This document shows positions 15,065-50,640 of a stretch of 64,000 nt of DNA, in pieces. Origin of the DNA: Eledone cirrhosa (lineage: Eukaryota). The stretch spans positions 40,424,001 through 40,488,000 of the forward strand of contig OZ024757.1 in the NCBI GenBank assembly GCA_964016885.1, in the 5' to 3' direction. The notes beneath the pieces were generated by a model. That model searched no databases and was not told the origin of the DNA. It saw nothing but the letters and a program-made list of their open reading frames with translations. The first letter of the stretch is position 1; each line of letters opens with the position of its first letter. Both the position numbers and the translations under genes were made by a program.

Positions 15065-15582
15065 TTGATATGTGTACATGTGGTTATATATCTTGTAAAG
15101 CGATTGAATATTTATTTACTTATGTGTATCGAAAATCTAAAGCTATGCTTAACAGACACGCATCGTACGATTATTCCATACTACTTGTATCTTTAAGGAA
15201 AACGGAGATGTAGCTTAGTCGTTAGAACGTCGGGGAAATTGTTTTGCAATATTTGTTCAGGCTTCATGTCAACTGACTTCCCACCGACGTCAACTTTGCT
15301 TTTATCCTATCGAGATCCATACGTATATAAAATTAAGTGAAGATTGGGGCCGATTCTGCCTCTAAACCTCATTTTCATTTCTATCACACTCGCCCCTTCT
15401 CTTACTATCTGGATTTAGTCAGACCTGGAAAGGGGTCAAGTCCTATATACCCGAGATCCGTTACTGGTAACATTGTTGCCCTAAAACTCCGCCAGCAATT
15501 ATGTAGTAATGAAATAACATATGTATATATTTATGAATGGTATCTGTATCTAAAATGTAAACCTCAATCTGAATAGCTGATT

Positions 15583-15778
15583 ATAGGAAAATGTATGACC
15601 CCCGACGGCAGAGCTCAAGCCGTTTGGACAGCTATTTCAGTCCAGAAATAGCCGTCGAAACGGCTTGAGCTCTGCCGTCGGGGTCATACGTTTTCCTATT
15701 TCCCACTCTACTACCCTAAATATTGAGTACTCTGGTGCGTTATGGTCCATCTGGTTCCTTACCACAATTCCTTCGTTA
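15583..15778 (+). mobile_element. Family A fold-back mini-element
   Basis: Same arms and tail as 11244-11449, in the opposite orientation. Confidence 0.85.
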
Positions 15779-17031: not shown

Positions 17032-17369
17032 TAACAAAGGAATTGTGGTAAGGAACCAGATGGACCATAACGCACCAGACTACTCAATACTTAGGGTAGT
17101 AGAGTGGGAAATAGGAAAAAGTATGGCCCCGACGGCAGAGCTCAAGCCGTTTTGACGGCTATTTCTGGACTAAATTATAATTTTTAGCCTAGTGAATAAA
17201 TAGCCGAACTTGTCAAGGGGGTACCCCCTTATATGGAAGTACTCCATATAAGGAAGTACCCCCTTGACAAGTTCGGCTATTTATTCACCAGGCTAAAAAT
17301 TCTAATTTAGTCCAGAAATAGCCGTTAAAACGGCTTGAGCTCTGCCGTCAGGGTCATACTTATTCCTAT
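17032..17369 (-). mobile_element. Longest family A fold-back element, with complete hammerhead framework on both arms
   Basis: About 125-bp inverted arms around ~17240. Plus arm: CCCC-TTGACAA(17264-17270)-GttCGGCTATTT...AAATAGCCG-tt-AAAAC-GGC...GCC-GTC-AGGG; the minus arm is its mirror (17127-17220). Confidence 0.85.
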
Positions 17370-35641: not shown

Positions 35642-35827
35642 TAACGAAGGAAGTGTGGTAAGGAACCAGATGGACCATAACGCACCAGAGTACTCAATAC
35701 TTAGGGTAGTGGAGTGGGTAATGGAAAATGTTCAAGACCCCGACGGCTATTTCTAGACTCTATGAGTCCAGAAATAGCCGTCGAAACGGCTTGAGCTCTG
35801 CCGCCGGGGTCTTGAACATTTTCCTAT
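35642..35827 (-). mobile_element. Family A fold-back mini-element (internal deletion in the left arm)
   Basis: Same tail and arms; the segment between the two GACGGC repeats is lost on the left arm; (TA)n flanks. Confidence 0.85.
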
Positions 35828-50477: not shown

Positions 50478-50640
50478 TAACGAAGGAACTGTGGTAAGGA
50501 ACCAGGTGGACCATAACGCACCAGAGTACTCAATACTTAGGGTAGTAGAGTGGGTAATAGGAAAATGTTCCAGAAATGGTCCAGAAATAGCTGTCGAAAC
50601 GGCTTGAGCTCTGCCGTCGGGGTCTTGAACATTTTCCTAT
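50478..50640 (-). mobile_element. Family A element (tail plus one inverted arm)
   Basis: Same sequence as the other family A copies. Confidence 0.85.

What the first reader, a model, noticed from the sequence alone, without database searches (positions are those of the whole stretch)
17127..17354. Hammerhead with apparent U3-A8 compensatory core (UUGACAA)
Seen: both arms of the longest family A copy have CCCC-TTGACAA-G where CUGANGA is expected. This is followed by a 9-bp stem II (CGGCTATTT/AAATAGCCG) with an inner hairpin, then stem III ACGGC/GCCGT, a GUC triplet and (A/G)GGG closing stem I. This copy has lost G12 (AAAAC), but the four other copies retain GTCGAAAC. Known: positions 3 and 8 form a Watson-Crick pair in the active HHR, and U3-A8 is a rare tolerated variant. 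Inference: the family consensus is an active variant ribozyme that canonical CUGANGA searches would miss.
Basis: partly seen in the sequence, partly recalled or inferred. Interest (0 to 1): 0.72.

Follow-up and report, generated by a model that had tools for sequence, protein, structure and literature searches.

The report
Penelope hammerhead with genomic cut-site scars
This is a decayed copy of a hammerhead-shaped RNA motif at the end of a very abundant Penelope-like jumping gene; its U3-A8 core is already known, but many tiny genomic copies begin exactly at the predicted cut site, so the RNA likely does cut itself in the host, and a quarter of copies carry a mismatched core that would be expected to cut poorly.

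Summary
The motif is real. It is the type I hammerhead in the pseudo-LTR of a Hydra-type Penelope-like element (PLE), present here as the two inverted arms of one 5'-truncated insertion. UUGANAA is the family state, not private decay, but U3-A8 is already published in PLEs. 'Compensatory' fails as a rule. Genome-wide exact matches are U3-A8 5,769, C3·A8 1,795, U3·G8 79 and C3-G8 21, so A8 is nearly fixed while position 3 toggles; the C3·A8 mismatch marks a young, successful lineage. This window's copy is likely dead (G12→A in both arms). The best evidence for activity is a scar. Of 92 short inverted insertions scored, 38 have a non-templated spacer, and in 31 of those an arm stops exactly at the base after GUC; none stops 1-2 nt upstream. 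The template RNA therefore likely had a 5' end at the scissile bond. Most copies extend past the site, so cleavage is likely partial. No RNA data or assay was available. The scan found this before on other DNA of the same genome (two notes, read after my analysis).

The parts
17032..17369 (.). Whole insertion: 5'-truncated Penelope-like element with inverted arms, flanked by (TA)n on both sides
   Evidence: arms 93% identical over 17111-17369; same ends in copies that carry RT and GIY-YIG
17032..17237 (-). Main arm: 3' end of the element (hammerhead + 20 nt + tail)
   Evidence: 8 differences in 205 nt to copy L019
17032..17110 (-). 79-nt 'tail', present on one arm only; likely lies between two reverse-transcription start sites
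   Evidence: tail pattern 22,621 exact matches; interpretation by analogy with PMC11167929
17127..17220 (-). Hammerhead, minus arm: stem I CCCC 17220-17217 / GGGG 17130-17127; core UUGACAA 17216-17210; G12>A at 17153; predicted cut between 17131 and 17130
17244..17369 (+). Inverted arm, stops at TTCCTAT 20 nt after the cut site and joins (TA)n
17260..17353 (+). Hammerhead, plus arm: stem I 17260-17263/17350-17353; carries C11.1>U (17326), G12>A (17327), G1.1>A (17350); likely inactive
17264..17270 (+). Core positions 3-9, UUGACAA (U3, A8)
17271..17326 (+). Stem II: pair 10.1-11.1, 2x1 loop, 9-bp helix 17274-17282/17316-17324, inner hairpin
   Evidence: three pairs change on both sides between subfamilies
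17330..17348 (+). Stem III (5 bp) with a 9-nt loop holding the palindrome GAGCUC
   Evidence: predicted homodimer 13.9 kcal/mol below two monomer hairpins
11253..11449 (.). Shorter family copy, truncated in stem II, GTCGAAAC intact, no UUGANAA half
15582..15769 (.). Shorter family copy, truncated in stem II
35651..35827 (.). Shorter copy of a sister subfamily
50487..50640 (.). Shorter copy of a sister subfamily

Best explanation
The motif is the type I hammerhead of a Hydra-type Penelope-like retrotransposon, the family carries A8 with U or C at position 3, and intact family members likely cut their own RNA slowly or partially after GUC, while this window's copy is likely dead. SHOWN: host element, core counts, stem II covariation, and insertion arms that stop exactly at G1.1. 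INFERRED: (1) Transcripts from tandem copies hold the hammerhead; the element's protein nicks (TA)n DNA and primes two cDNAs, 20 nt and about 100 nt downstream of the cut site. (2) On uncut RNA, the majority, reverse transcription runs into stem II and usually aborts there. On cut RNA it runs off the new 5' end at G1.1 and adds a few untemplated A/T, leaving a palindrome centred on the cut site. (3) A8 is likely kept not to pair with U3 but because G8 would create GAGUUC, which is predicted to pair with the loop III palindrome and lock the core in a wrong helix. (4) Weak cleavage suffices or is dispensable, which would let a C3·A8 lineage thrive.
For: Host: copies with this end encode RT plus C-terminal GIY-YIG with DKT and CxCx5C motifs, a 3,096-bp tandem unit and (TA)n targets (criteria). 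Core: with positions 3-9 left free, U4, A6 and A9 are 100 of 100, G5 98 of 100, position 7 takes all four bases (first 100 of 5,733). Stem II has three double changes, though mostly on one branch. Scar: 768 short inverted junctions genome-wide; 92 scored; in the 38 with a non-templated spacer, 54 of 76 arm ends are at G1.1, 0 at -1, 0 at -2, 1 at -3, 7 at +1; both arms stop there in 23 (strict scoring 54 of 98 ends in 49 junctions). Spacers differ between loci and occur in seven subfamily types, so the events are independent. CpG decay does not explain them: 0 parent forms against 8 single-A/T spacers. 22 of 30 loci from an independent pattern (871 matches) also start at G1.1. Fold: hammerhead-constrained ensemble share is 0.023-0.043 with U3-A8 and 1.5e-5 to 1.6e-4 with C3-G8 on the same backbone.
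Against: No assay and no RNA reads. In a random sample of 30 tail-bearing copies, 27 extend upstream of the site and none starts exactly at it (two at +1). The hammerhead fold is never the predicted minimum. In a type III hammerhead scan, every 3/8 change except the G3-C8 swap had low activity (PMC9901934), and single G8C or C3G killed an Anolis PLE hammerhead (PMC11167929); both sit badly with 1,795 C3·A8 matches. That paper found no RNA-seq reads ending at its cut site. The scar shows a defined 5' end, not what made it. Truncated copies have lost their core, so they are assigned to subfamilies only by a 20-nt segment.
Confidence: 0.72

Rival explanations
1. Only U3-A8 (and G8) members cut; C3·A8 transcripts are inactive passengers that are cut in trans by U3-A8 siblings through loop III dimers, or amplify without cutting.
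For: The palindromic loop III favours dimers; PLE hammerheads are thought to work as dimers (PMC4209133). Hammerhead mutants did not reduce insertion in vitro (PMC11167929). Scars are somewhat more frequent in U3-A8 types, 22 of 58, than in C3·A8-rich types, 8 of 29.
Against: That difference is not significant (p 0.47). The C3·A8 lineage kept the rest of the core intact across several starred nodes. This rival is compatible with the best explanation and differs only on C3·A8.
Confidence: 0.4
2. The 5' end at G1.1 is not made by the ribozyme: it is a transcription start, a protein-nuclease cut or a structure-induced reverse-transcriptase stop, and the hammerhead is a vestigial fold kept as a protein-binding or priming scaffold.
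For: The 3-8 pair is not maintained; most templates were uncut; an extended stem I ends at the first priming site (folds).
Against: The stop matches the scissile bond to the nucleotide. A stop at the base of stem III would be expected at -1 (inference), where 0 of 76 spacer-class ends lie. Only 5 of 20 double-stop spacers end in G, so there is no cap-copy signature (the cap signature is recalled). U4, G5, A6 and A9 and G12-A14 and C17 (partly fixed by its filter) stay constant while neighbours vary.
Confidence: 0.2
3. One reading: a strictly compensatory U3-A8 pair gives a fully active variant ribozyme.
For: U3-A8 is 5,769 of 7,664 matches; U3-A8 is reported active in vitro (cited in PMC3088659; the primary paper was not held).
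Against: C3·A8 1,795 and U3·G8 79; no 3/8 association; most templates uncut.
Confidence: 0.08

Closest known systems
U3-A8 minimal hammerheads of Schistosoma mansoni Cercyon PLEs (Cervera and de la Pena 2014, PMC4209133; parts 1-2 of 4 read, supplement passages)
   Same: U3-A8 core in a PLE pseudo-LTR, long helix II, short helix I, G10.1-C11.1, palindromic loop III, copies in inverted pairs.
   Different: Here stem III is a full 5-bp helix with a 9-nt loop and stem II carries a second hairpin; large C3·A8 and smaller U3·G8 subfamilies exist; cut-site scars were not described in the parts read.
Hydra clade of C-terminal EN+ PLEs, including Hydra-1_Obim (Craig et al. 2021, PMC8557442 and preprint; section 11, passages, part 2 of the supplementary archive read)
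   Same: DKT motif, CxCx5C linker, no CCHH, C-terminal GIY-YIG, (TA)n targets, about 3 kb, hammerhead near the 3' end, inverted 5'-truncated arm.
   Different: All Hydra hammerheads listed in File S2 have canonical CUGANGA and short stems. This family's protein resembles Hydra-1_Obim by eye but is a different family; no tree was built.
PAc (Poseidon) of Anolis carolinensis (Frangieh et al. 2024, PMC11167929; parts 1-2 of 4 read)
   Same: Two reverse-transcription start sites bounding a one-sided tail; AT-rich targets; uncut RNA as the main template.
   Different: PAc has C3-G8, needs protein to cut, and no reads ending at the cut site were found; here the tail is 79 nt and genomic copies record the cut site.
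Natural U3-A8 hammerheads (Perreault et al. 2011, PMC3088659; passages read)
   Same: Natural U3-A8 at the core pair.
   Different: Described as rare covariation; no C3·A8 mismatch in the passages seen.

Membership tests
Type I hammerhead ribozyme | Three helices around the core, stem I open-ended | tested here: met
   92.5% of cells paired versus 28-50% for slid controls; three stem II pairs change on both sides (16 hand-picked copies); the changes fall mostly on one branch
Type I hammerhead ribozyme | U4 G5 A6 N7 A9, G12 A13 A14, A15.1-U16.1, H17 conserved, N7 free | tested here: met
   Family level. Not met by this window's copy (G12>A in both arms)
Type I hammerhead ribozyme | Canonical C3-G8 | tested here: not met
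   21 of 7,664 matches
Type I hammerhead ribozyme | Watson-Crick pair at 3-8 (any identity) | tested here: inconclusive
   Met in 5,790 of 7,664; C3·A8 mismatch in 1,795; no covariation
Type I hammerhead ribozyme | Self-cleavage 3' of position 17 | not testable with these tools
   Indirect only: arm ends pile up at G1.1
Type I hammerhead ribozyme | Match to an Rfam hammerhead model | tested here: not met
   (this decayed copy only; intact copies were not scanned)
Penelope-like element, EN+ | Single ORF with RT and C-terminal GIY-YIG endonuclease | tested here: met
   Motifs read by eye in frameshifted copies L031-L034; Pfam and PDB gave no hit on fragments
Penelope-like element, EN+ | Partial tandem pseudo-LTRs, inverted 5'-truncated arm, one-sided tail | tested here: met
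Hydra clade | DKT in place of DKG; RWK-like motif | tested here: met
   SDKTGNL and RWR in L031
Hydra clade | CxCx5C linker, no CCHH in the endonuclease | tested here: met
   CNCPDRSTC; one Cys only between VIY and YIG
Hydra clade | Insertion into (TA)n; short unit | tested here: met
   unit 3,096 bp, slightly above the 'generally <3 kb'
Hydra clade | Placement in an RT phylogeny | not tested
   Reference proteins were not available as stored sequences

The most novel reading that the evidence does not exclude
A hammerhead lineage that cuts in the germline without needing the 3-8 Watson-Crick pair: A8 is selected to avoid a misfold with the dimer-forming loop III, C3·A8 cores still cleave (alone, protein-assisted or as heterodimers), and hundreds of palindromic mini-insertions are a subfamily-resolved fossil record of ribozyme activity in Penelope-like elements.
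Probability: 0.3. Interest if true: 0.72.

Novelty: new variant of a known kind. Interest (0 to 1): 0.5.

Why it matters
What hammerheads do in endonuclease-bearing Penelope elements is stated to be unclear (PMC8557442), and the one biochemical study found no RNA ends at the cut site in vivo (PMC11167929). Insertions that stop at the scissile bond give a DNA-only readout that cleavage likely happens in the germline and can be scored per subfamily in any assembled genome. The natural series U3-A8, C3·A8, U3·G8 and C3-G8 on one backbone is a ready-made test of how much the 3-8 pair matters. The U3-A8 core itself is not news.

Tried and rejected
Rfam: no hit. The repeat finder was swamped by (TA)n. 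Pfam, PDB and protein searches on ORF fragments gave nothing, weak evidence for frameshifted fragments. One widely gapped genome pattern returned no answer, so sister subfamilies were found with a pattern that fixes the 5' side of stem II. RNA evidence: no RNA holder listed. Contigs of three coded runs from one sample hold the family with N7 varying and no listed change at 3 or 8 near family A; contigs cannot show RNA ends. Rejected: private decay; a wobble path C3-G8 > U3·G8 > U3-A8 as the whole story, because most C3-G8 copies in the large clade sit scattered among C3·A8 siblings, consistent with sporadic A8>G, although two older G8 subfamilies exist; C3 as a T-deletion artefact, because spacing is identical to U3 siblings; CpG decay as the source of spacers; a shifted core register with G8 as the G after AA, because position 9 would then vary. 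Tree-independent pairs were too few to test any covariation. Literature: searches turned up no report of cut-site-truncated PLE insertions or of a natural C3·A8 family; most hits were seen only as listings. Przybilski and Hammann 2007 and Lunse et al. 2017 are not held and may bear on both; one supplementary file of PMC4209133 was not searchable.

Full report
1. Observation. The window lies in a 3.0-Gb genome at G000:C18. Positions 17111-17369 form a 93%-identical inverted repeat between (TA)n tracts. Each arm reads CCCC, UUGACAA, G, a 2x1 loop, a 9-bp stem II with an inner hairpin, position 12-14, a 5-bp stem III with a GAGCUC loop, GUC and (A/G)GGG. Both arms have G12>A; the + arm also has C11.1>U and G1.1>A. 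G12 is the general base (PMC6155905, passage), so this copy is likely dead. The other four window copies keep GTCGAAAC but lack the first half of the core. Rfam finds nothing.

2. Host element. The best 30 genomic matches share this end. Longer copies L031-L034 carry frameshifted RT and C-terminal GIY-YIG frames, with a 3,096-bp tandem unit in L031 and long inverted arms in L032-L034. DKT, CxCx5C, lack of CCHH and (TA)n targeting match the Hydra clade of Penelope-like elements; no phylogeny was run. Copies end either 20 nt after the GUC or about 100 nt after it, like the two priming sites that bound the tail in the Anolis element. The window copy is one insertion: minus arm with tail, plus arm without. 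The first ATG of the ORF lies well downstream of the hammerhead, so codon constraints likely do not shape it.

3. Positions 3 and 8. In family A, with the core left free, U3 and A8 are each 99 of the first 100 of 573 matches listed; C3-G8 is 0. Across sister subfamilies, whole-genome exact counts are U3-A8 5,769, C3·A8 1,795, U3·G8 79 and C3-G8 21 (all 100 listed); reversed controls are 0. An insertion can count twice, once per arm. A8 is 98.7%; positions 3 and 8 are not associated. With all seven core positions free, the first 100 of 5,733 matches give C3 in 23 (all with A8), G8 in 3 (all with U3), and position 7 as G 73, T 14, A 11, C 2. A tree of 163 copies with positions 3, 7 and 8 masked (134 columns, bootstrap not fully settled, midpoint root, sample enriched for G8 and C3 by design) places CUGAGAA as a short-branched lineage spanning several starred nodes between U3-A8 groups; two older G8 groups also exist. 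So A8 is the conserved feature, and the Watson-Crick pair was not required for amplification.

4. Structure. On 16 hand-picked copies the hammerhead helices are 92.5% paired, and three stem II pairs change on both sides; these changes fall mostly on one branch, so they are not independent events. The hammerhead-constrained fold is close to but never the predicted minimum (share 0.023 for L003; 2e-5 and 0.008 for the window arms). Placing G8 in silico lowers the share about 6- to 100-fold against the matching A8 variant, and C3-G8 lowers it about 240- to 1,500-fold against U3-A8, because the core then pairs with loop III and the GUCGGG strand. This offers a folding reason for A8; it is a prediction. 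Loop III favours a dimer by 13.9 kcal/mol.

5. Evidence of cutting. If the RNA is cut after GUC, both cDNAs should run off at G1.1 and leave a palindrome centred on the cut. A pattern requiring non-family letters just before GGGGTC gave 871 matches; of 30 loci read, 22 start at G1.1, 7 are G-run insertions and 1 is a point mutant. A position-neutral gapped pattern found 768 short inverted junctions. I scored 92 of the first 93 listed (one duplicate strand dropped; the last 7 of the 100 listed were not fetched). With strict matching, 54 of 98 arm ends in 49 spacer-bearing junctions lie at G1.1. Allowing substitutions, 54 of 76 ends in 38 junctions lie there, with 0 at -1 and -2; 31 junctions have an arm there and 23 have both. 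Nine more are flush CCCC|GGGG and ambiguous by one base. Spacers are varied and mostly A/T. By subfamily type the scar is 22 of 58 in U3-A8 types and 8 of 29 in C3·A8-rich types (p 0.47); assignment rests on a 20-nt segment, and the main C3·A8-rich type is 12 of 14 C3·A8 among unselected full copies. Against strong activity: 27 of 30 random tail-bearing copies extend upstream of the site, most stopping in stem II.

6. Comparison. U3-A8 in PLE hammerheads is published (PMC4209133, about 1,300 hits) and natural U3-A8 earlier still (PMC3088659). Listed Hydra-clade hammerheads are all canonical, so this long-stem A8 form is a new variant there. A type III mutational scan found low activity for all 3/8 changes except G3-C8 (PMC9901934, passages), which fits partial cleavage and makes the C3·A8 lineage unexpected. 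My searches (listed under Tried and rejected) found no report of cut-site scars or natural C3·A8, but two key papers were not held.

7. Earlier notes. After forming this reading I found two scan notes on other DNA of this genome that reach the same conclusion; they are unreviewed and are not independent support.

8. Verdict. A real hammerhead motif of a known element class with a known core variant, misdescribed as compensatory. The worthwhile parts are the cut-site scars and the mismatched-core lineage. Interest 0.5.

Noticed in passing
window 57142-57115, minus strand: Canonical minimal PLE-type hammerhead (CUGAUGA, one extra A, 4-bp stem II, GAAA, short stem III) of a different family; a similar, weaker one at 453 minus.
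   Followed up: partly
window 1593-1640, plus strand: CUGAUGA followed by a 9-bp hairpin, GAAA and (TA)n; possibly the 3' end of another PLE family.
   Followed up: no
L035:6048-6494 minus (also in L017): A second GIY-YIG endonuclease of Hydra type but of different sequence abuts a family A end; a nested or chimeric PLE insertion.
   Followed up: no
L236-L265: 5' ends of tail-bearing copies cluster 35-48 nt upstream of the cut site, inside stem II (14 of 30), suggesting a strong reverse-transcriptase stop.
   Followed up: partly
L273, L277, L288, L292: Some copies join G1.1 directly to AT-rich target DNA with no inverted arm.
   Followed up: partly
window 28935-about 30700: 13-bp tandem array with strong GC skew.
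   Followed up: no
L003 and siblings, flanks of stem I: Stem I is predicted to extend through internal loops to exactly the first priming site (TTCCTAT), which may define where reverse transcription starts.
   Followed up: no
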